From the NCBI GenBank assembly GCA_964505815.1, contig CAZDKA010000002.1, forward strand, positions 1 to 45,591: 45,591 bases of DNA, in the 5' to 3' direction. The notes beneath the pieces were generated by a model. It was not told where the DNA came from. It ran no database searches and was given only the letters and a program-made list of their open reading frames with translations. Positions 1,612 through 8,469 of the stretch are shown here, one piece after another; position 1 is the stretch's first letter; every line of letters starts with the position of its first letter. This DNA comes from an uncultured Candidatus Saccharibacteria bacterium (GTDB taxonomy: Bacteria; Patescibacteriota; Minisyncoccia; Sungbacterales; SURF-37). The position numbers and the translations under genes were made by a program.

Positions 1612-2754
1612 TCAAAACTTCCAGCCGATCTTTTCCATCACTGCCTTGAAATCCGGATCAAGGCCAGCCAGCAGTATAACTTCGCGATAATCAATGAAGC
1701 GGATACGAGCCGGGTCTTTTTTCAAGCTTTGCTGGTATTCGTTTAAAAGTTTGAACTTAAAAGGATATTTGCTTCCTTCCGGTTCGGCAAGTTTTGCCAT
1801 CGGCTTCAGAAGTTCGCGAATGTCGCTCTGCCTGCTTTTTCCGGCAATGGAGGCGAGCACAGCCGCGTACTGAAACCGCACCCGCAAGTACGAATCAAAA
1901 ACAGCAAAGTCCGCAAGATCCTCGTCTTTATGAAGAGCAAGAGTCTGTTTGAAAAGTTCTTCAGCGCTTTTGGCATCATACTCGTTTAGTATTGCCAGGG
2001 CGCCGGCGACAGAAGCCTGATAAAAATAAGGTCTTATGGCACGCGACTTTTTCGGAATAAAAGTTGTTGCCTCGGCTATGGCCACATCCCGAACAATAAG
2101 CGCTCCGCCTTCGGCAAGCTTTTCTTTTGCTGCGCCGAGATAACGAGTCCTTTGTTCCTGAGACAGATTTTGATTGCGAATGAGTTGCTGGACATACCAG
2201 TAAGCGTTCCATAAATACGCAACGCTATTCGGATTAATTTCAATTGAGCGTTCATAAAGAAGTCTTATTGCTGTAGGAATGTCGCCGTTGGCATTCTTAA
2301 GAATATTCTGGTACGGATCCCCGGTAAAAATGACGTTTCTTGCAAAATCCTCATCATTAGTTGCGGTAATAAGGTCAACCAATCCGTTCATAAGCTGCGA
2401 CCGGAGATGAGTAGAAAAAGAAGTGTCTTCTATCATTGCTTTAAGATCATTCACCGCTTCAATTTTCTGCTCCGGAGAGCCCTTAAAATACTTGTCAAAA
2501 GCAATAATCGCTCTTATGCGCGCTTGTTTTAGCGTATCAGATTCTTCAGCATCTTCTAACGCGCCCTCAAGCGCGGTAATTGCTTTTTCAAACTCCCCGG
2601 ACTTATGGAGAACGCCGGCTTCCCCCGCTTTTTTCTCAAGTCGTTTTACTCGCTGGGCCTTCTGAAATCTATCAACAAAAATAAAACCAGCCAGTATTAA
2701 AATGGCTGCTATTGCTGCAATAAGAATTTTCTTAAAAGAAAAAAACTGGTTCAT
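1612..2754 (-). CDS. Membrane-anchored all-helical (TPR-like) protein, tandem paralog 2
   Basis: Start taken at ATG 2754 (MNQFFSFKKILIAAIAAILILAGFIFV, a TM helix). The track start at 2796 is a TTG inside the upstream gene. Similar to 2759..3958: DEDFARNVIFTGDPYQ vs DDDFSHAVIFRGQPYE, AYWYVQQL vs AYWYGEQL; shared GWKF motif, C-terminal in this protein and four residues from the end of the other. Confidence 0.6.
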   Translation of the reverse strand: MNQFFSFKKILIAAIAAILILAGFIFVDRFQKAQRVKRLEKKAGEAGVLHKSGEFEKAITALEGALEDAEESDTLKQARIRAIIAFDKYFKGSPEQKIEAVNDLKAMIEDTSFSTHLRSQLMNGLVDLITATNDEDFARNVIFTGDPYQNILKNANGDIPTAIRLLYERSIEINPNSVAYLWNAYWYVQQLIRNQNLSQEQRTRYLGAAKEKLAEGGALIVRDVAIAEATTFIPKKSRAIRPYFYQASVAGALAILNEYDAKSAEELFKQTLALHKDEDLADFAVFDSYLRVRFQYAAVLASIAGKSRQSDIRELLKPMAKLAEPEGSKYPFKFKLLNEYQQSLKKDPARIRFIDYREVILLAGLDPDFKAVMEKIGWKF

Positions 2755-2758
2755 CGTT

Positions 2759-3958
2759 TTAGCGCGCCGCGACAAACTTCCAGCCAAATTTTTCAAGCGT
2801 TATTTTAAATTCCGGCACAAATTCGGCGACCTTCAAAAGTTCGTGATAATCGGGGAAGTGGACGTGGTCCTCCACGCCGGCGAGACGCACGCTTCTTGTA
2901 TATTCATTCATGATCAGCTGGGTAAAAAGAGGCGTTTTCCCGTTAATCGCCCTGAGGGCATCGCCCATAACTGAGGCAAGCTCGCGGATATCCTCCCTCT
3001 TCTCTGCTCCGTAACCGGCTACCAGGAACCCGACATAGTCATAGCGCACTTCATAGACCATATCGCGCAAAAAGAGGTCATCTGCTTTCTCTTTGCTTTC
3101 TTTGTCAATATCGTTAAGAATGCTCCTAAAAAGCGTATCAACGTGCGCAAGAGACGTATCCTCAGAGTTTCGCAAAGCCGCAAAGCCGACAACCATCGCG
3201 TGGATAATTTTTAGCGCCGCGATACGGGTAGGAGAATCGGCTTTTTGAATCAACGTAATATCGCGATCCATGAGCTCCTCGCCTTTGCGAAGATGCGTTA
3301 TGAGTTGATTCGCGTAGGCTGTCTTCACTTCCGGAGAAAGCTCTTTTTCCAGAAGTTTGCTTCGCGTCAGTTGCTCGCCGTACCAGTAGGCAATGCGAAA
3401 ATGGGCATTGGCAGTCGGGGCAAGAGCAAGACTCCATTCGTAGAGCTTGCGCGCGGCAATGTGAGTATCATGGCCTCCTGCTTCCGCCAAGAACGTCTCA
3501 TAAGGCTGGCCCCTGAAAATAACCGCGTGAGAAAAGTCATCATCATGGGTGGCGTTATACATATCAAGCATCGAAGTCAAAATCATGGCCCGCGTCAAAC
3601 CGGGAATTGATTCATCGGCCACCATTTCCTTCATCATCGCTACCCCTTTTTTCTTTTTCTCCGGCTGGCAGGTAATAAAGTTGTCCCAGGCAAGCGCGGC
3701 CTGGGCATGAATGCGCTCCTGCGGCGAGCTCACATAAATGAGGGCCTGTTCCCAAAGGGGAATACTCTTGTCGGTGTCAGCCAGACGATGATATTTCATG
3801 GCTTCATCGTGAAGGCTTTCATGCCGGGCCTTTTTGTTGGCATCAGTGTAATGCATATATATTTTCTCTCCGCCCCATACAGCCAGACCCAAAAGCAAAA
3901 GAGCTGTGAGTCCTCTTTCGGCAACGGAAAAAAAATTTTCTCGCGAAATGTTTAACAT
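2759..3958 (-). CDS. Membrane-anchored all-helical (TPR-like) protein, tandem paralog 1
   Basis: ATG at 3958 (MLNISRENFFSVAERGLTALLLLGLAVWGG); the track start at 3976 is TTG. The ATG overlaps the last codons of the upstream 75-aa ORF. Paralogous to 1612..2754. Confidence 0.6.
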   Translation of the reverse strand: MLNISRENFFSVAERGLTALLLLGLAVWGGEKIYMHYTDANKKARHESLHDEAMKYHRLADTDKSIPLWEQALIYVSSPQERIHAQAALAWDNFITCQPEKKKKGVAMMKEMVADESIPGLTRAMILTSMLDMYNATHDDDFSHAVIFRGQPYETFLAEAGGHDTHIAARKLYEWSLALAPTANAHFRIAYWYGEQLTRSKLLEKELSPEVKTAYANQLITHLRKGEELMDRDITLIQKADSPTRIAALKIIHAMVVGFAALRNSEDTSLAHVDTLFRSILNDIDKESKEKADDLFLRDMVYEVRYDYVGFLVAGYGAEKREDIRELASVMGDALRAINGKTPLFTQLIMNEYTRSVRLAGVEDHVHFPDYHELLKVAEFVPEFKITLEKFGWKFVAAR

Positions 3959-4179
3959 GAACAACACTCGCAGCAATCCCCAACAACAACAGGATCTCCA
4001 AGACCGCCTGGACCATCGGCTCTTGCTTCCGGAAAAATACAGGCCAAAGGATTTACTCCGGCCGATGGTTTATCCTTGTTTTCTTTGTGCAACACGAATC
4101 CGACAGTAAATACCGCCAAAGTTAAGACCAAAAGTCGTAAAACTCTCCCCAGGCCGATTTTTTTAGTAGATGTATCCAT
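3952..4179 (-). CDS. 75-aa Cys-rich small protein, candidate modified-peptide precursor
   Basis: ATG at 4179. N-terminal hydrophobic helix LGRVLRLLVLTLAVFTVGFVL, a Gly/Pro/Asp linker, and C-terminus GDCCECCSC. The stop region overlaps the next gene's ATG (TCATGTTAA). No homology call is possible by eye. Confidence 0.45.
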   Translation of the reverse strand: MDTSTKKIGLGRVLRLLVLTLAVFTVGFVLHKENKDKPSAGVNPLACIFPEARADGPGGLGDPVVVGDCCECCSC

Positions 4180-4341: not shown

Positions 4342-5943
4342 TTAAGGAAATGGGTGCGGCAGGGGATTAAATGCGGCACGGCTTCTATGCCCTAGTTTTT
4401 CGGGCACATGCTTGAGCCGCGCGGCCCCGAGAGGGACGGCGTGTTCTTTCATATAAAGAGGAATAAGCGGCGGTATGACGACCCGCACCGAATGGTATCC
4501 CAACGTATCTAAAACCGTATGCGTTGCCTCATAAAAATAAACTGCGTATTGGGGGCCAAGTTTTTCTATGGCGCCTTGCAGCCACGCCAACTCTTCCTTT
4601 TTGGACGAAAAGGTTCTGGCCGGAATATCATTCCACAGCTGCGCTGCGCCCTCCAAGAAAAAAGAGAAGGACCGAAGCGTTTCCGGATTAGCCCACAGCG
4701 CAAGGCGCCCCTCTTGTCCTATTTCTTCGCGAAAAGGCGAGTAATTCTCCGACAGGCGGTAAGTTTTTAATTCGGGAGTTCTGGTATACTGCGTCCGCAG
4801 CGACTGCCGAATCCCCAGCGATTCGCTTAAAGCCCTGACAACCGCTATTTCTGGCTTTGCGTCGCACCCGCCGCCAATGGTCAAGGAGGGCCCGCGCCCG
4901 GAACGATCAATTATGATCGCGGCAAAAGTCGGCACCGGGATATCTGTTGTAATATTAAGAATGGTCGGCTCAAGATGATAGCGGCGGCAGAGCGCAAGAA
5001 GCGTGGCAGCATCGGGGTGATTGAGCGCGGAGATGTCAACACGGGGCGGGGCAATGGCGTTCAGCCAGTGAATCAGGAAAGCGTCGCGCTGGATTAACTC
5101 GTATATGCCTAATATGACTGCTTCCTCAAGCGAAAAATGCCCGGCAGCGCCGTTGGTAATGGGCTGCTGCAGGAACGGTTCGTGATACTCAGCATGATGA
5201 CAGTAGTTCCAAAAAACGCATTGCGCCGGTAAAAGTACCGGAATGCTGCTCCCCAGTTTTCGCCCCGGCGTCCAAAAAAATTCATCGGCGTCATTGAAAC
5301 GGCGTTCTGGAAATATTTGTTTTTGCTCCTCTGAAAATTCTGCCAAATTCGCCGGATCAAGATACAAAACGCCTTTTTTTTTAAGGGAACGCAGGGAGCT
5401 TCTAACAAGTTTTTCCTTCCGATAGAGCGAAAGAAAATGTCGTTCCAGCAGCTCGCCGATGGCTTTGGAAAGCGCTTCTTCAAAATGAAGCGATGTGCCG
5501 CGGTTATAGAGCTGCTGCGGGTCGTGGCCGTCGGTCAGTGTTTTATCGAATTGGGATTGGAGATGGAGATAAAATAATTTCGGCTCATCGTTGAATGGCG
5601 GCTCAAATACGGCGCGCGGAGAGGTAAGAATTTTTTGTTCAAAGAGATAATTCGGTATGGCCTGCCATTGCGGCGGAACCGGATAAGAAGCATCACTAGG
5701 GATAAAAGAATCGTTGCTGGTACCCAGTTCTGCAATTTTTTGCTGTAACTGCAAAGACCAGCGGCCATGCGGGGACTGCGGCGAGCGATAACGCCCTGCC
5801 GCCTTTTGCGCCTCGCTGAAGATTTCGCTGGTTCTTTTTACACCAACTCCGCTCTGCGGAAGAAACGACTGGCGGTCGTTAAAAACTTCACGCGCTAATG
5901 GCTCGGACGTACTTTCCGTAGAGATATTTTTGTCTGAGTTCAT
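4342..5943 (-). CDS. ycaO: YcaO-domain protein (ATP-dependent peptide backbone-modifying enzyme family)
   Basis: Motifs read by eye: GTSLHFEEALSKAIGELLERH, PITNGAAGHFSLEEAVILGIYELIQRDAF, GGGCDAKPEIAVVRALSES. About 130-aa N-terminal extension. Starts 5 nt after the stop of 5949..7868. Confidence 0.8.
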   Translation of the reverse strand: MNSDKNISTESTSEPLAREVFNDRQSFLPQSGVGVKRTSEIFSEAQKAAGRYRSPQSPHGRWSLQLQQKIAELGTSNDSFIPSDASYPVPPQWQAIPNYLFEQKILTSPRAVFEPPFNDEPKLFYLHLQSQFDKTLTDGHDPQQLYNRGTSLHFEEALSKAIGELLERHFLSLYRKEKLVRSSLRSLKKKGVLYLDPANLAEFSEEQKQIFPERRFNDADEFFWTPGRKLGSSIPVLLPAQCVFWNYCHHAEYHEPFLQQPITNGAAGHFSLEEAVILGIYELIQRDAFLIHWLNAIAPPRVDISALNHPDAATLLALCRRYHLEPTILNITTDIPVPTFAAIIIDRSGRGPSLTIGGGCDAKPEIAVVRALSESLGIRQSLRTQYTRTPELKTYRLSENYSPFREEIGQEGRLALWANPETLRSFSFFLEGAAQLWNDIPARTFSSKKEELAWLQGAIEKLGPQYAVYFYEATHTVLDTLGYHSVRVVIPPLIPLYMKEHAVPLGAARLKHVPEKLGHRSRAAFNPLPHPFP

Positions 5944-5948
5944 AAAGG

Positions 5949-7868
5949 CTAATAGCTGTTACTATGAATACGGAGGCGCGATACGCCAAGCAACACGTGC
6001 CCTGCCGCGTCAATCCATGCTTCGACGGTTAAATAGTCGTGGCGAAAGCCGCCGATAACTTTCGGCCGAATCTCTTCGCGAATAAAAAAGGTGTTTTCTT
6101 GGTCGTATTGCATGGACAAAAGCCAGGCTAAACACATATCAATCGCGTCTTTATTTTTTCCTGGATCCAACGCCAATACCTCAAAAACTTTTCCGGTTCC
6201 GCGAGTGTAAGGGACGCCGCCGATCGTAGATTCGGGGAAGGCACCGTCTGAAAGCTGGTGGCCTTTGAGCCAATCGTTAACTCTCTGATAGAAAATCTCG
6301 TGGCTGCCGTGAAAACTATGCGCTAGCTCCGCCCAAACCGCAAGATTCTCGGCCCGGCCGCTTTCCAGCGATGCTGCAAATTTTTCTTTCAAAATCCGGG
6401 TTAGATTTTCAAACGGTGTTGAGAATCGATGATCGGCTCTTATCATCTTAAAGAAACTCGCGATTTGAGCAAAGGTAAGCGGTTCGAAGTTCAAGGCGGC
6501 GAGTCGGCTCAAAATTCTGTCTGCTGCGGCTCCCGCCTCGTTCGGCTTGCCCAATGCAAGCGATAACTGCCCGAAATAGGCTAATGTCAACTCCGAATTG
6601 GAAATTTGGAATTGAGAATTAGTAATTAAATAACTCTTGAGGTATTCAAAACTTTTTTCTGCGGCAATAGAATATCTTTGCTCTCCTGCGGCTTTACCGA
6701 ATTCGGCAAGCGCGAGAGCAGTAAAGGCTAGGCGCGGCCAGTCAATTTGTGTTTGGCGGCCGGTTAGCGGGTCTATAATCGGCGGAAGGTTGCCATCCGG
6801 CTCCTGGATCCGGCAAAGCCAATCGGCGGCCATTCGTAAACGCTGGATTATGAATTCTGAATTAAGAATTACGGATTCCGGGGCAACTACCGGACCGAAA
6901 AGAGACAAATGTTTTTTGCCATCTTCGGATTCTATGAAATCATCAACTTCAAAAATAGAAATATCGGCATCTTTATATGCGGCGCGGCTTAGTCCTGCTT
7001 TACTCTCTGCCAGATCCCCCAAAAAATCTTCAAGATTTTGAAACCGGCGCGCATTATGCGCCTCGGGCAGAAACCATCCTTTTCGTCCTTCTCCGTTTTT
7101 TTCCACGCCGCTTTTCATTCCAACATTCTTAAGAATGTTGGAATGACCGCGGGTTGTTTTTTGCTGTAAAAGATATCCTTTTTCCGAATAAATCGCGTTC
7201 CGCCCAAACTCAACCGGCAACAACGGCAGACGGAGGTCGTGCATAATAGTAATTTCTATCTGCGTATCCGCCAGCTCTTCCGGCGAAAGCGGCTTGAATC
7301 TAGGGTCGCGACTGGCGTTTACTGCGGCATCGGCAATACCCTCTCCCAAATGTCGGCGCTCCACTATTGAAGAACCGCGCAGATGCCCCTTGGTCCACAA
7401 AGCAACATCAAGGGTGATCGACAACTGGAAACGTTCAGAAAGAGTACTAAAGTATTCGCGGGTGAAACGCTCGCCGGTAACAAAAAATTTTTCAAGCGCG
7501 TGTCGGGCAATTTTCAACGCGATTATTCTTTCTTCTTCGTCAAACCCCCAACGAAGAGGCCTCACTTGCACTAAACGGTCTGTTCTTTCAAGAATCTCGA
7601 TCTCCGGAGATGAAAAAATTTTTATCCACGGTGCATCAAGTTTCTCGTTCGGCTTGGCGTTGCAGATAATAAACATTGGTGTTCGATCACTTGACGGCAT
7701 CCTCATTTTTTTTGGCCTGTCACCGAATCGGAGCGGGAAATCAAAATAAAAGCAGCCGTGCGTGCCCGGAAGATCAACAAAAATAATATCGCGCTCGTTC
7801 GCGACCCCGCTTAACCACTCTAAAACCGCATGAAGTTGTTGGGAGAAAGGTCTCCACCATCCAAACAT
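5949..7868 (-). CDS. AMMECR1-like domain fused to a prenyltransferase/terpene-cyclase-like alpha-alpha toroid domain
   Basis: Residues ~105-300 (WTKGHLRGSSI, NASRDPRFKPLSPEEL, IEITIMHDL, GWFLPEAH, FLGDLAESKAGL) follow the AMMECR1 pattern (LRGCIG, DPRF, LLPQV, KAGL), with Ser replacing the Cys. Residues ~330-639 carry three WLxxxQxxDG-type repeats (WLCRIQEPDGNL, WLKGHQLSDGAF, WLLSMQYDQ). Confidence 0.65.
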   Translation of the reverse strand: MFGWWRPFSQQLHAVLEWLSGVANERDIIFVDLPGTHGCFYFDFPLRFGDRPKKMRMPSSDRTPMFIICNAKPNEKLDAPWIKIFSSPEIEILERTDRLVQVRPLRWGFDEEERIIALKIARHALEKFFVTGERFTREYFSTLSERFQLSITLDVALWTKGHLRGSSIVERRHLGEGIADAAVNASRDPRFKPLSPEELADTQIEITIMHDLRLPLLPVEFGRNAIYSEKGYLLQQKTTRGHSNILKNVGMKSGVEKNGEGRKGWFLPEAHNARRFQNLEDFLGDLAESKAGLSRAAYKDADISIFEVDDFIESEDGKKHLSLFGPVVAPESVILNSEFIIQRLRMAADWLCRIQEPDGNLPPIIDPLTGRQTQIDWPRLAFTALALAEFGKAAGEQRYSIAAEKSFEYLKSYLITNSQFQISNSELTLAYFGQLSLALGKPNEAGAAADRILSRLAALNFEPLTFAQIASFFKMIRADHRFSTPFENLTRILKEKFAASLESGRAENLAVWAELAHSFHGSHEIFYQRVNDWLKGHQLSDGAFPESTIGGVPYTRGTGKVFEVLALDPGKNKDAIDMCLAWLLSMQYDQENTFFIREEIRPKVIGGFRHDYLTVEAWIDAAGHVLLGVSRLRIHSNSY

Positions 7869-7989
7869 GCACCACTTATCGTAGGTTACTCGTCCTTCCT
7901 TGACAATGGCTATTGAATAGCTATCTCTCTGGCCGTTTAGTCCAAAGTATGCTAGATTATATTCGCTCTTTGAAAAAATGGAGGTGTAT

Positions 7990-8469
7990 ATGGCCTACAG
8001 CGACAAAGTGATTGATCACTATAACAATCCACGCAACGTCGGGTCGTTTCCGAAAGATGAGAAAGGTGTGGGCACCGGGCTTGTCGGCGCGCCGGAGTGC
8101 GGAGATGTGATGAAACTGCAAATTAAAGTAATGCTCGAGCATGAGTGCGCAAAGTGTCACCACGTCTGGTATCCAGAACGCCAGGAGCCGATCTGCCCGA
8201 TGTGCCACTGGGCAAACATCAACATCAAACAAGTTATTCAGGACGCGAAATTCAAAACATTTGGCTGCGGCTCGGCCATTGCTTCCTCGTCGCTCGCCAC
8301 CGAATGGCTAAAAGGCAAAACTATTGAGGAGGCGGCAAAAATCAAAAACACCGACATCGTAAATGAGTTAAAGTTGCCGCCGGTAAAAATCCACTGCTCG
8401 GTTTTGGCAGAGGACGCGATTAAGGCCGCGATTAAAGATTATCAAACCAAACAGGGAGGAGAGCAATGA
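7990..8469 (+). CDS. iscU: Fe-S cluster scaffold IscU/NifU-like, with a ~30-aa Cys4 insertion
   Basis: GGAGGTG then ATG at 7990. MAYSDKVIDHYNNPRNVGSF, GAPECGDVMKLQIKV, FKTFGCGSAIASSS, PPVKIHCSVLAEDAIKAAI are near-canonical IscU. An extra segment LEHECAKCHHVWYPERQEPICPMCHWANINIK follows KLQIKV. Confidence 0.85.
   Translation: MAYSDKVIDHYNNPRNVGSFPKDEKGVGTGLVGAPECGDVMKLQIKVMLEHECAKCHHVWYPERQEPICPMCHWANINIKQVIQDAKFKTFGCGSAIASSSLATEWLKGKTIEEAAKIKNTDIVNELKLPPVKIHCSVLAEDAIKAAIKDYQTKQGGEQ

What the first reader, a model, noticed from the sequence alone, without database searches (positions are those of the whole stretch)
5949..7868. AMMECR1-like domain (catalytic-region Cys replaced by Ser) fused to a terpene-cyclase/prenyltransferase-like toroid
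The central region follows the AMMECR1 pattern but reads LRGSSI where the family has LRGCIG. The C-terminal ~300 aa contain three WLxxxQxxDG-type repeats typical of alpha-alpha toroid enzymes. AMMECR1 has no established biochemical function and is usually described with Memo and a radical SAM enzyme, not with YcaO. The tight spacing to ycaO suggests co-function, possibly as a substrate-binding or second-modification partner.
Basis: partly seen in the sequence, partly recalled or inferred. Interest (0 to 1): 0.65.

Follow-up and report, generated by a model that had tools for sequence, protein, structure and literature searches.

The report
AMMECR1-toroid partner protein of a YcaO
This gene encodes an undescribed three-domain protein (small beta domain, AMMECR1 domain with Ser in place of the family's Cys, helical toroid) that, mostly in ultra-small CPR bacteria, sits where the usual helper of the ring-forming YcaO enzyme would be and is sometimes fused to it, which gives the orphan AMMECR1 domain its first testable biochemical context.

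Summary
ORF 5949-7868 (-) encodes 639 aa in three domains: an N-terminal beta domain (1-105), an AMMECR1 domain (110-325; Pfam 53 bits; PDB 1zq7/1vaj/1wsc) reading LRGS where the family has LRGC, and a 12-helix (alpha/alpha)6 toroid (337-639). The AF2 model has pLDDT 91.7.

The toroid is a family of its own. It gave 271 hits among 1.84 billion representatives, and nearly all listed ones have this same architecture. It lacks DxDD and any conserved Cys, so it is not a demonstrable terpene cyclase, prenyltransferase or LanC.

The gene opens a LAP/TOMM-type operon: a SagD-family YcaO 5 nt downstream, a 75-aa precursor ending CCECCSC, and two TM/TPR-like paralogs. No E1-like, ThiF-like or TfuA partner is among the scanned products.

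- 26 of 39 species-representative loci have a YcaO within 9 kb.
- 45 of 63 loci holding both genes have them directly adjacent.
- 24 of 33 YcaO-seeded loci have the fusion directly upstream.
- Single-polypeptide AMMECR1-toroid-YcaO proteins exist, and one was verified on two contigs.
- A PRTase-propeller-AMMECR1-toroid fusion also exists.

Best reading (0.55): a non-homologous replacement of the YcaO "C-protein", acting as a substrate-recruiting and activating hub. The main rival is a tailoring enzyme. I found no paper describing it.

The parts
5949..7868 (-). Gene for the 639-aa three-domain protein ('FUS': N-domain, AMMECR1, toroid). It is the first gene of the operon.
   Evidence: ORF and translation. 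There are 51 homologs at 36-58% identity, and all named ones carry CPR labels. The AF2 model has pLDDT 91.7 and pTM 0.89.
7554..7868 (-). N-terminal beta-rich domain (aa 1-105). It has no family match and is absent from some family members.
   Evidence: AF2 secondary structure shows one helix and six strands. No Pfam hit at E<=10. The domain is missing in ~550-aa members (L022, L029) and in the YcaO fusions P0105 and P0109.
6894..7541 (-). AMMECR1 domain (aa 110-325; the Pfam match covers 118-309).
   Evidence: PF01871 at 53.3 bits. PDB 1zq7, 1wsc and 1vaj match by profile and by fold.
7371..7379 (-). Codons for R164-G165-S166: the LRGC motif with Ser in place of Cys.
   Evidence: HMM alignment to 1zq7. 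Family counts at this position are S 149, C 10, F 1 among 163 aligned members.
7095..7148 (-). 18-residue low-confidence insertion (aa 241-258) inside the AMMECR1 domain.
   Evidence: pLDDT is below 50. In the 27-sequence alignment the insertion is present only in P0001 and P0005.
5952..6860 (-). (alpha/alpha)6 toroid domain (aa 337-639). Invariant residues are K560, D620 and H624, with E563 conserved in 162 of 163 members.
   Evidence: 12 helices in the model. Foldseek matches toroids. Family conservation. A toroid-only search of 1.84e9 representatives gave 271 hits, nearly all listed ones in the same fusion architecture.
7878..7906 (-). Promoter-like site (TTGTCA-17-TACGAT) just upstream of the start codon.
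   Evidence: The total number of such sites in the region is not above chance, so the position is only suggestive.
4342..5943 (-). YcaO cyclodehydratase (533 aa), SagD/TOMM type, with a C-terminal ...NPLPHPFP tail. It starts 5 nt after the FUS stop codon.
   Evidence: PF02624 at 194.8 bits. TIGR03604 at 228.2 bits against a cut-off of 219.25. The closest solved relatives are MusD, TruD and LynD. AF2 pLDDT 90.4.
3952..4179 (-). Candidate 75-aa precursor peptide: a K/R-rich N-terminus, a hydrophobic helix, an ARAD junction, and a core ending GDCCECCSC.
   Evidence: Peptides of the same design lie in related loci.
1612..3976 (-). Two paralogous proteins of about 400 aa, each with an N-terminal TM helix and a TPR-like body. 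They are conserved members of the cluster.
   Evidence: Homologs occur in most related loci.

Best explanation
P0001 is the dedicated cytoplasmic partner subunit of the adjacent YcaO heterocyclase. It is a non-homologous stand-in for the E1-like 'C protein' or ThiF-like 'F protein' of TOMM/LAP synthetases.

Proposed mechanism:
1. The rigidly packed AMMECR1 cleft and toroid funnel bind the precursor peptide, that is, its signal-anchor leader and/or the conserved A-x-A-D junction.
2. The protein docks onto the YcaO.
3. It presents the Cys/Ser/Gly-rich core for ATP-dependent cyclodehydration to thiazolines and oxazolines.
4. Where SagB is present, these are oxidised to azoles.
5. The Sec-type leader then allows export and cleavage by general machinery.

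The protein acts as a hub. In other genomes it pairs with, or is fused to, a PRTase-beta-propeller enzyme.

What is shown:
- the domain architecture;
- the operon and translational coupling;
- conserved synteny in both directions;
- natural single-chain fusions in the order partner-YcaO;
- absence of a canonical partner among the scanned products;
- an azoline-type YcaO.

What is inferred: physical complex formation in the unfused systems, peptide binding, YcaO activation, and the export route.
For: Adjacency and synteny:
- In the window FUS is the first gene of the operon, 5 nt upstream of a SagD-family YcaO.
- In 45 of 63 loci that hold both genes they are directly adjacent on the same strand. 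Start/stop overlaps of 8-14 nt occur in L005, L008 and L043.
- 26 of 39 species-representative loci have a YcaO within 9 kb.
- 24 of 33 non-redundant YcaO-seeded metagenome loci have FUS immediately upstream.

Gene order matches sagB-sagC-sagD:
- SagB-FUS-YcaO is seen in L006, L013, L017, L020 and L060, with FUS in the sagC slot.
- SagB identity is confirmed by TIGR03605 at 142 bits.

Rosetta-stone fusions:
- P0086 (1131 aa), P0105 (1043 aa) and P0109 (1055 aa) are AMMECR1-toroid-YcaO in one chain. P0168 is toroid-YcaO.
- P0109 is an uninterrupted ORF on two assemblies and is followed by the same kind of precursor.
- The partner is N-terminal to YcaO, as in the fused C-D heterocyclases LynD, TruD and MusD, which are the closest solved relatives of this YcaO.

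No canonical partner:
- No E1-like, ThiF-like, TfuA or RRE family was hit by the four operon products, or is listed for the called genes of L001-L007.
- The YcaO model is a YcaO domain plus a ~130-aa N-extension.
- Review PMC7136475 names only E1-like, ThiF-like and TfuA as YcaO partners.

Other support:
- The YcaOs keep the extreme C-terminal P-H-P-F-P tail in the large majority of the 30 loci read.
- The toroid subtype is found almost only in this fusion architecture, and pTM 0.89 suggests one rigid unit.
- Hub behaviour is shown by a 1082-aa PRTase-propeller-AMMECR1-toroid ORF in L045 and by a PRTase-propeller gene near FUS in 16 of 39 loci.
Against: - No experiment and no complex model exists. 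Peptide binding and YcaO activation are pure inference.
- Nine of 33 clade YcaO loci lack FUS within 2-10 kb, and no other partner is visible there. The YcaO may therefore work alone, or FUS may be encoded elsewhere in those genomes.
- L026 and L030 have FUS, the precursor and the TPR-like gene but no YcaO within 9 kb. FUS therefore has a role that does not require YcaO.
- Both domains keep many invariant polar residues: R122, R164, D188, R190, N272 and K290 in the AMMECR1 domain, and R379, K560, E563, R609, H610, D620 and H624 in the toroid. This looks more like an active site than a scaffold. E1-like C proteins are (from memory) much less conserved.
- No RRE-like element was recognised.
- The N-domain is dispensable in some members.
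Confidence: 0.55

Rival explanations
1. FUS is a catalytic tailoring enzyme that travels with the YcaO rather than a recognition or activation partner. The AMMECR1 cleft (Ser166 or Cys as nucleophile or H-bond donor) and/or the toroid pocket (K560, E563, R609, H610, D620, H624) would perform a second chemical step. That step could act on the precursor peptide, or on the YcaO-activated amide or azoline, for example ring opening, transfer or hydrolysis. The YcaO would be effectively standalone for substrate recognition.
For: - Invariant polar constellations occur in both domains.
- The conserved toroid residues fall at the starts of helices 2, 4, 6, 8, 10 and 12, which is the inner-barrel pattern of toroid enzymes (inference).
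- Ser and Cys interchange at position 166.
- FUS occurs with the precursor but without YcaO in L026 and L030.
- Clade YcaOs occur without FUS.
- Standalone YcaOs are known, for example in bottromycin biosynthesis (PMC7136475).
Against: - No known catalytic signature is present: no DxDD, no conserved Cys or Zn ligands, and no GH-family profile hit.
- No chemistry is known for any AMMECR1 protein.
- Fusion N-terminal to YcaO, and the sagC position in the gene order, fit a partner role equally well.
Confidence: 0.3
2. FUS is a cytoplasmic holdase or targeting factor for the membrane-anchor leader. It would shield the hydrophobic signal-anchor of the precursor and delay Sec export until modification is complete, with no effect on YcaO catalysis.
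For: - All precursors next to FUS carry an N-terminal TM-like helix and an A-x-A-D type junction.
- FUS tracks the precursor and the TPR-like gene even where YcaO is absent.
Against: - The conserved toroid residues are charged or polar, not hydrophobic.
- Covalent fusion to enzymes (YcaO, PRTase-propeller) argues for a role in catalysis or presentation.
Confidence: 0.08
3. The toroid is an isoprenoid-handling enzyme (class II terpene cyclase or prenyltransferase-like), and FUS lipidates the peptide or modifies a lipid.
For: - The best structural neighbours of the toroid are single-domain SHC-like cyclases (8pak, 8paj) and drimenyl-diphosphate synthase.
- There is a weak PF13243 hit, and PF13243 or PF07678 is listed for three homologs.
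- From memory, Burroughs et al. 2019 (JBC 294:10211) linked Memo-AMMECR1 contexts to isoprenoid modification. The paper could not be read here.
Against: - There is no DxDD motif and no conserved Cys for a Zn site.
- Foldseek TM-scores of 0.5-0.6 are generic toroid similarity, and GH88/GH105 and epimerases score nearly as well.
- A sequence search with the toroid returned only 271 proteins, and nearly all listed ones have this family's architecture.
Confidence: 0.05
4. The adjacency is a coincidence: an ordinary housekeeping AMMECR1 gene that happens to sit beside a YcaO.
For: AMMECR1 is widespread and has no assigned function.
Against: - Adjacency is conserved across dozens of loci at 25-58% identity.
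- Gene fusions exist.
- The protein scores below the cut-offs of the housekeeping-type AMMECR1 models (TIGR04335, TIGR00296).
Confidence: 0.02

Closest known systems
E1-like 'C protein' (SagC, McbB) and Ocin-ThiF-like 'F protein' partners of azoline-forming YcaOs, including the N-terminal part of fused C-D heterocyclases (LynD, TruD/PatD, MusD)
   Same: - FUS is encoded next to the YcaO, often translationally coupled.
- It sits between sagB and sagD homologs in some loci.
- It is fused N-terminally to the YcaO in some organisms.
- It is the only candidate for the partner role in a cluster that otherwise has the canonical parts (YcaO, often SagB, a Cys/Ser-rich precursor).
   Different: - The fold is entirely different: beta domain, AMMECR1 and (alpha/alpha)6 toroid instead of RRE and an E1-like Rossmann domain.
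- There is no hit to any E1-like or ThiF-like model.
- No RRE was recognised.
- Sequence conservation is much stronger.
- FUS also occurs with a PRTase-propeller enzyme and, rarely, without YcaO.
AMMECR1 family (PF01871; PH0010 1vaj, MM0484 1zq7, ST0229 1wsc; human AMMECR1; AmmeMemoRadiSam system protein A)
   Same: - It clears the Pfam threshold and has the same fold.
- It retains the DxRFxP, G-x-LP, KAG and FE motifs and the R-G of LRGCIG.
   Different: - The motif Cys is Ser in 149 of 163 members.
- It scores below the cut-offs of TIGR04335 and TIGR00296.
- There is no Memo or radical-SAM neighbour.
- It is fused to a toroid and a beta domain, and sits in a RiPP operon.
Linear azol(in)e peptide (LAP/TOMM) clusters of CPR bacteria noted by Sharrar et al. 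2020 (mBio, PMC7298704)
   Same: The cluster type and taxa are the same: YcaO, usually a nitroreductase/SagB, and a short precursor, in Parcubacteria, Microgenomates and related groups.
   Different: The passages of that paper read here list YcaO, nitroreductase and peptidase only. They mention neither the AMMECR1-toroid gene nor the missing partner. The window's cluster has no SagB anywhere in its 45.6 kb.
(alpha/alpha)6 toroid enzymes: single-domain SHC-like class II terpene cyclases (8pak, 8paj), GH88/GH105 hydrolases, AGE-type epimerases, LanC/LanCL1
   Same: A 12-helix toroid fold, and QW-like WLxxxQxxDG motifs in the loops.
   Different: - No family profile reaches threshold.
- No DxDD, no Cys/His Zn site of the LanC or prenyltransferase type, and no GH catalytic signature was identified.
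- It has its own invariant set: R379, K560, E563, R609, H610, D620, H624.

Membership tests
AMMECR1 (Pfam PF01871) | Profile match above the gathering score | tested here: met
   53.3 bits against a cut-off of 25, E=3e-14, residues 118-309 covering profile positions 1-166 of 168.
AMMECR1 (Pfam PF01871) | Two-subdomain AMMECR1 fold as in 1vaj, 1zq7 and 1wsc | tested here: met
   Foldseek E 9e-11 to 4e-9, with TM-score on the target of 0.54-0.79. The profile search gives 1zq7 at 9e-17.
AMMECR1 (Pfam PF01871) | Conserved LRGCIG motif with its Cys | tested here: not met
   The motif reads LRGSSI. At this position the family has Ser 149, Cys 10, Phe 1 among 163 aligned members. The L-R-G part is kept.
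AmmeMemoRadiSam system protein A (TIGR04335) / TIGR00296 | Score above the NCBIfam cut-off, and Memo plus radical-SAM neighbours | tested here: not met
   59.1 bits against a cut-off of 99, and 41.7 against 91. The neighbours are YcaO and IscU. No Memo or radical SAM appears among the 9 neighbouring products scanned. The rest of the window was not scanned.
Class II terpene cyclase / squalene-hopene cyclase | Profile membership (PF13243/PF13249) | tested here: not met
   13.6 bits against a cut-off of 26.1, E=0.034. The PDB profile search gives SHC at E=1.8.
Class II terpene cyclase / squalene-hopene cyclase | Catalytic DxDD (protonating Asp) motif | tested here: not met
   There is no conserved DxDD in the toroid in the 47- and 163-sequence alignments.
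Class II terpene cyclase / squalene-hopene cyclase | (alpha/alpha)6 toroid fold with QW-type repeats | tested here: met
   12 helices. 8pak matches at E 9e-7. Two full WLxxxQxxDG motifs and one partial.
LanC / protein prenyltransferase beta subunit | Zn site with conserved Cys (Cys-Cys-His, or Asp-Cys-His) | tested here: not met
   No conserved Cys anywhere in the toroid. LanCL1 is only a weak fold match at E 5e-3.
TOMM cyclodehydratase partner (E1-like C protein TIGR03603; ThiF-like F protein) | Homology to the E1/ThiF superfamily with an N-terminal RRE | tested here: not met
   P0001 hits no such model in Pfam or NCBIfam. The fold is AMMECR1 plus toroid.
TOMM cyclodehydratase partner (E1-like C protein TIGR03603; ThiF-like F protein) | Genomic behaviour of a partner: adjacent to or coupled with YcaO, sagB-C-D order, fused N-terminally to YcaO in some taxa | tested here: met
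   45 of 63 loci have the two genes adjacent. SagB-FUS-YcaO order is seen in several loci. Fusions P0086, P0105 and P0109.
TOMM cyclodehydratase partner (E1-like C protein TIGR03603; ThiF-like F protein) | Binds the leader peptide and potentiates YcaO ATP-dependent cyclodehydration | not testable with these tools
   This needs biochemistry or a multimer model.
LAP/TOMM biosynthetic cluster (for the operon) | Azoline-type YcaO (SagD family) with a C-terminal Pro-rich tail | tested here: met
   TIGR03604 at 228.2 bits against a cut-off of 219.25. The tail reads ...NPLPHPFP, and nearly all clade members end in PHPFP or a close variant. The nearest structures are LynD, TruD and MusD.
LAP/TOMM biosynthetic cluster (for the operon) | Cys/Ser/Thr-rich precursor peptide gene | tested here: met
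   The 75-aa ORF 3952-4179 ends GDCCECCSC. Analogous peptides occur in at least 15 related loci.
LAP/TOMM biosynthetic cluster (for the operon) | FMN-dependent SagB/McbC dehydrogenase | tested here: not met
   There is no tblastn hit in the whole 45.6-kb window. It is present in most related loci, with TIGR03605 at 142 bits. The rest of the genome could not be searched.

The most novel reading that the evidence does not exclude
The AMMECR1-toroid protein is a fourth, non-homologous class of YcaO partner, after E1-like, ThiF-like and TfuA. More generally it would be a precursor-recognition and activation hub that plugs into interchangeable catalytic modules (YcaO, PRTase-beta-propeller, GT2). 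If so, the generic job of the AMMECR1 domain would be to clamp and present, or chemically prime, a peptide or protein substrate. That would be the first biochemical handle on an ancient orphan family, including human AMMECR1 and the AmmeMemoRadiSam systems.
Probability: 0.3. Interest if true: 0.85.

Novelty: new variant of a known kind. Interest (0 to 1): 0.72.

Why it matters
- **YcaO partners.** Azoline-forming YcaO enzymes are thought to need an E1-like or ThiF-like partner, and thioamide-forming ones TfuA (PMC7136475). Here a large clade has a completely different protein in that position, sometimes covalently fused. The clade gives about 240 hits at E<=1e-10 among representatives clustered at 50% identity. 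It is mostly CPR/Patescibacteria, with a few Myxococcota.
- **Genome mining.** RiPP mining rules that require known partner families would miss this gene, or would label these YcaOs 'standalone'.
- **AMMECR1 function.** AMMECR1 is conserved from archaea to humans and is mutated in an X-linked syndrome, yet none of my searches of the held literature turned up a biochemical function. This context supplies a defined candidate substrate (a short Cys-rich peptide), a defined partner enzyme, and a simple mass-spectrometry read-out.
- **CPR biology.** It may also explain how genome-reduced CPR bacteria make modified, Sec-exported peptides with a minimal gene set.

Tried and rejected
Family assignment:
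- Pfam on the isolated C-terminal 305 aa and N-terminal 115 aa at E<=10 gave only a sub-threshold SQHop_cyclase_C hit and nothing for the N-domain.
- The family profile against PDB sequences gave only AMMECR1 structures. SHC (E=1.8) and AprG (E=0.035, 30 residues) were not significant.

Rejected readings of the toroid:
- LanC-like cyclase or prenyltransferase: rejected because there is no conserved Cys.
- Class II terpene cyclase: rejected because there is no DxDD.

Window content:
- I looked for a SagB dehydrogenase, PRTase-propeller, rhodanese or DsbA in the window. None was found.

FUS-less YcaO loci:
- I tested whether the unknown 379- and 491-aa proteins upstream of the YcaO in L129 are divergent FUS or known partners. 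They are not: hhalign probability below 1% and no NCBIfam hit.

Literature:
- AMMECR1+YcaO returned 0 papers.
- AMMECR1+RiPP returned only irrelevant papers.
- AmmeMemoRadiSam, AMMECR1+structure+enzyme and AMMECR1 since 2022 returned nothing biochemical.
- Burroughs et al. 2019 (JBC) could not be opened.

- The first metagenome scan with the 27-sequence YcaO alignment failed for lack of a conserved stretch. It was redone with 14 closer sequences.
- The genome search and the fetch from genomes were shut, so the window's own genome and the YcaO-less or FUS-less genomes could not be searched whole.
Full report
**1. Observation.**

The ORF at 5949-7868 on the minus strand encodes 639 aa. Its N-terminus aligns with homologs from the first residues, so the ATG start is right.

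Pfam finds one domain, AMMECR1 (PF01871), at 53.3 bits against a cut-off of 25, E=3e-14, residues 118-309. A profile of the family hits the three solved AMMECR1 proteins: 1zq7 at 9e-17, then 1wsc and 1vaj. That alignment puts Ser166 of "LRGS" opposite the Cys of "LRGC".

Among 163 aligned family members the position is Ser in 149, Cys in 10 and Phe in 1. The substitution is therefore a family trait, not an accident of this gene. The other AMMECR1 motifs are kept: R122, DxRFxP at 188-193, G-x-LP at 264-268, K290-A-G and F306-E307.

The protein scores below the cut-offs of the housekeeping-type models TIGR04335 (59 against 99) and TIGR00296 (42 against 91).

The C-terminal 305 aa have no significant Pfam match. 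SQHop_cyclase_C scores 13.6 bits against 26.1.

**2. Structure.**

AlphaFold2 with a 47-sequence alignment gives pLDDT 91.7 and pTM 0.89. The model has three parts:
- a beta-rich N-domain (residues 1-105);
- the AMMECR1 domain (110-325), with an 18-residue disordered insertion at 241-258 that only P0001 and P0005 have;
- twelve helices from 337 to 638.

Foldseek against the PDB returns the AMMECR1 structures first (E about 1e-10). It then returns (alpha/alpha)6 toroids:
- single-domain SHC-like cyclases 8pak and 8paj (E 9e-7 to 9e-6);
- GH88/GH105 hydrolases;
- drimenyl-diphosphate synthase;
- cellobiose 2-epimerase;
- linalool dehydratase;
- LanCL1.

All toroid matches have TM-scores around 0.4-0.6 on the target. 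The toroid fold is therefore confirmed, but no particular toroid family is.

Two full WLxxxQxxDG motifs (350, 533) and one partial (582) are present. There is no conserved DxDD and no conserved Cys.

The invariant toroid residues are R379, K560, E563, R609, H610, D620 and H624. Conserved residues fall at or near the starts of helices 2, 4, 6, 8, 10 and 12. That is the pattern expected for a pocket at one mouth of the inner barrel (inference).

**3. The family.**

A word-indexed search found 51 relatives at 36-58% identity. All carry PF01871, and the named ones are CPR (Liptonbacteria, Sungiibacteriota, Parcubacteria).

An exhaustive HMMER search with the toroid alone against 1.84 billion representatives found only 271 proteins, 239 of them at E<=1e-10. 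Nearly all listed ones are 600-660 aa with the toroid at about 320-630. This toroid subtype is therefore found almost only fused behind an AMMECR1 domain.

Species-representative genomes gave 39 loci. Most are CPR lineages. Three have Myxococcota-type labels (L031, L040, and L039 on a 7-Mb contig).

**4. Context in the window.**

Downstream on the same strand lie, in order:
- **YcaO (4342-5943),** starting 5 nt after the stop. It scores PF02624 194.8 bits and TIGR03604 (SagD family) 228.2 bits against a cut-off of 219.25.
- **A 75-aa ORF (3952-4179).** It has a K/R-rich N-terminus, a hydrophobic helix, an ARAD junction and a tail ending GDCCECCSC.
- **Two paralogous proteins** of about 400 aa with a TM helix and a TPR-like body.

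Upstream and divergent are iscU and two iscA genes. These are not conserved neighbours in the other loci.

No E1-like, ThiF-like or TfuA family was hit by the operon products. No SagB dehydrogenase is present anywhere in the window.

The YcaO profile is closest to the fused cyanobactin heterocyclases MusD, TruD and LynD (E 5e-35 to 1e-31). It matches only their YcaO halves. Its AF2 model (pLDDT 90.4) is a YcaO domain plus a structured N-extension of about 130 aa, and Foldseek puts LynD first at E 5e-24. Nearly all of the 30 clade YcaOs read end in PHPFP or a close variant.

**5. Co-occurrence.**

| Survey | Result |
|---|---|
| Metagenome loci around six homologs | 5 distinct loci have FUS followed by YcaO, plus SagB (TIGR03605, 142 bits), a TM-leader/Cys-Ser-Gly-rich peptide and the TPR-like protein |
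| FUS-seeded species-representative loci | 26 of 39 have a YcaO within 9 kb |
| Non-redundant YcaO-seeded metagenome loci, >=33% identity and >=2 kb upstream | 24 of 33 have FUS directly upstream (27 of 40 with >=1 kb) |
| Loci holding both genes | 45 of 63 have FUS then YcaO directly adjacent on one strand |

Of the 13 FUS-seeded loci without a YcaO:
- most are cut short by contig ends;
- one (L022) shows a SagB at its edge;
- only L026, L030 and the distant GT2-fused L046 have full flanks.

Start/stop overlaps of 8-14 nt occur in L005, L008 and L043. Several loci read SagB-FUS-YcaO, which is the sagB-sagC-sagD order with FUS in the C slot.

**6. Rosetta-stone fusions.**

Four cluster representatives are single chains: P0086 (1131 aa), P0105 (1043 aa) and P0109 (1055 aa) are AMMECR1-toroid-YcaO, and P0168 (865 aa) is toroid-YcaO.

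P0109 is an uninterrupted ORF on two independent assemblies. It is followed by a precursor of the same design...ASADVPIPLSGGEGEGGEGGCEGEGE.

The order partner-then-YcaO mirrors the fused C-D heterocyclases.

**7. A second partner.**

In 16 of 39 loci a 550-aa PRTase-plus-beta-propeller protein lies within a few kb of FUS, often directly beside it. In L045 the two form one 1082-aa ORF.

L026 and L030 combine FUS, PRTase-propeller, precursor, TPR-like protein, rhodanese and a DsbA-like protein, with no YcaO within 9 kb.

L046 has a GT2-TM-AMMECR1-toroid protein of 998 aa.

FUS thus behaves as a hub that tracks the precursor and pairs with different enzymes.

**8. Counter-evidence.**

Nine of the 33 YcaO loci lack FUS. 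With 10-kb flanks, L129 and L130 still show neither FUS nor a canonical partner.

Either the YcaO can act alone, or FUS is encoded elsewhere in those genomes. Whole genomes could not be searched.

The strong polar conservation in both domains would also suit a catalytic role.

**9. Interpretation.**

The best-supported reading is that FUS is the partner subunit of this YcaO clade and replaces the E1-like or ThiF-like protein non-homologously. It would recruit and present the membrane-anchor-led precursor and probably activate the YcaO.

In the window the product would be a thiazoline-rich peptide, since no SagB is seen. The peptide would be exported and trimmed at the A-x-A-D junction by general Sec and signal-peptidase machinery (inferred).

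I put this reading at 0.55. The rivals are:
- a co-travelling tailoring enzyme, 0.30;
- a leader holdase, 0.08;
- an isoprenoid enzyme, 0.05;
- coincidence, 0.02.

**10. Novelty.**

LAP clusters in CPR genomes were reported by Sharrar et al. 2020. The passages read here list only YcaO, nitroreductase and peptidase (PMC7298704).

The review PMC7136475 lists three partner classes: E1-like, ThiF-like and TfuA.

No held paper combines AMMECR1 with YcaO, and none of the AMMECR1 searches turned up a biochemical function.

Notes from earlier windows of this scan reached similar readings. They are not independent evidence. Two of their claims were re-derived here: the four-domain PRTase fusion and the YcaO-less variant.

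I rate this a new variant of a known kind of system, with a potentially new class of YcaO partner.

Noticed in passing
window 3952-4179 (-): A 75-aa ORF with a K/R-rich N-terminus, a TM-like helix, an ARAD junction and a tail ending GDCCECCSC. Peptides of the same design follow FUS or YcaO in at least 15 related loci. An 'AD' junction is shared by most of them: KADVP, SADVP, FADAP, ALADVP. It looks like a Sec signal-anchor used as a RiPP leader.
   Followed up: partly
window 1612-3976 (-): Two tandem paralogs of about 400 aa, each with an N-terminal TM helix, a TPR-like helical body and a GWKF C-terminus. They have no Pfam family. Homologs are present in most FUS or YcaO loci, including the YcaO-less ones.
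   Followed up: partly
whole window (1-45591): There is no SagB/McbC-type dehydrogenase in the window, although most related clusters have one next to FUS or YcaO. The closest relatives of this FUS (L008, L086, L088, 44-56% identity) also show only the FUS-YcaO pair. The product here may stay at the azoline stage, or SagB may lie elsewhere in the genome.
   Followed up: partly
L026 7248-8894 (-), L030 10705-12369 (-), L045 7339-10587 (+): A 550-aa PRTase-like plus PQQ-type beta-propeller protein lies near FUS in 16 of 39 species loci, often directly beside it. In L045 it is fused to FUS in one 1082-aa ORF. Its chemistry is unknown. It is absent from the window.
   Followed up: partly
L026 12377-14017 (+), L030 12388-15588 (+), L036 5790-7463 (+): The YcaO-less FUS clusters carry a TM-anchored rhodanese, a DsbA-like thioredoxin and a membrane protein of about 175 aa. 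This suggests extracytoplasmic thiol or disulfide handling of the exported Cys-containing peptide.
   Followed up: no
L046 7771-10767 (+): A distant relative (26% identity) is a 998-aa protein combining a GT2 glycosyltransferase, a TM region, AMMECR1 and the toroid. There is no YcaO within 9 kb.
   Followed up: no
L129 7302-9974 and 11569-12366 (+): A clade YcaO without FUS is preceded by two unknown proteins of 379 and 491 aa. It is followed by a 265-aa TM protein with a weak Hint/intein-like match where the short precursor would normally be.
   Followed up: partly
L031, L039, L040: FUS-YcaO pairs also occur on high-GC contigs labelled Myxococcales, Polyangiaceae or delta proteobacterium; one contig is 7 Mb. 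The module is therefore shared between CPR and Myxococcota, presumably by horizontal transfer.
   Followed up: no
L004 13408-14694 (-), L130 12990-14291 (+): A PaaK/F390-synthetase-like AMP-forming ligase recurs in some of these clusters. It could be an additional tailoring enzyme.
   Followed up: no
window 7978-8469 (+): The divergently transcribed IscU matches the NifU_N and IscU profiles in two stretches, so it carries an insertion in the scaffold domain. Two IscA/HesB genes follow it. This neighbourhood is not conserved next to FUS in other loci.
   Followed up: no
window 7095-7148 (-): An 18-residue low-confidence insertion (aa 241-258, KNVGMKSGVEKNGEG-like) sits in the AMMECR1 domain. 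In the 27-sequence alignment only P0001 and its relative P0005 have it.
   Followed up: no
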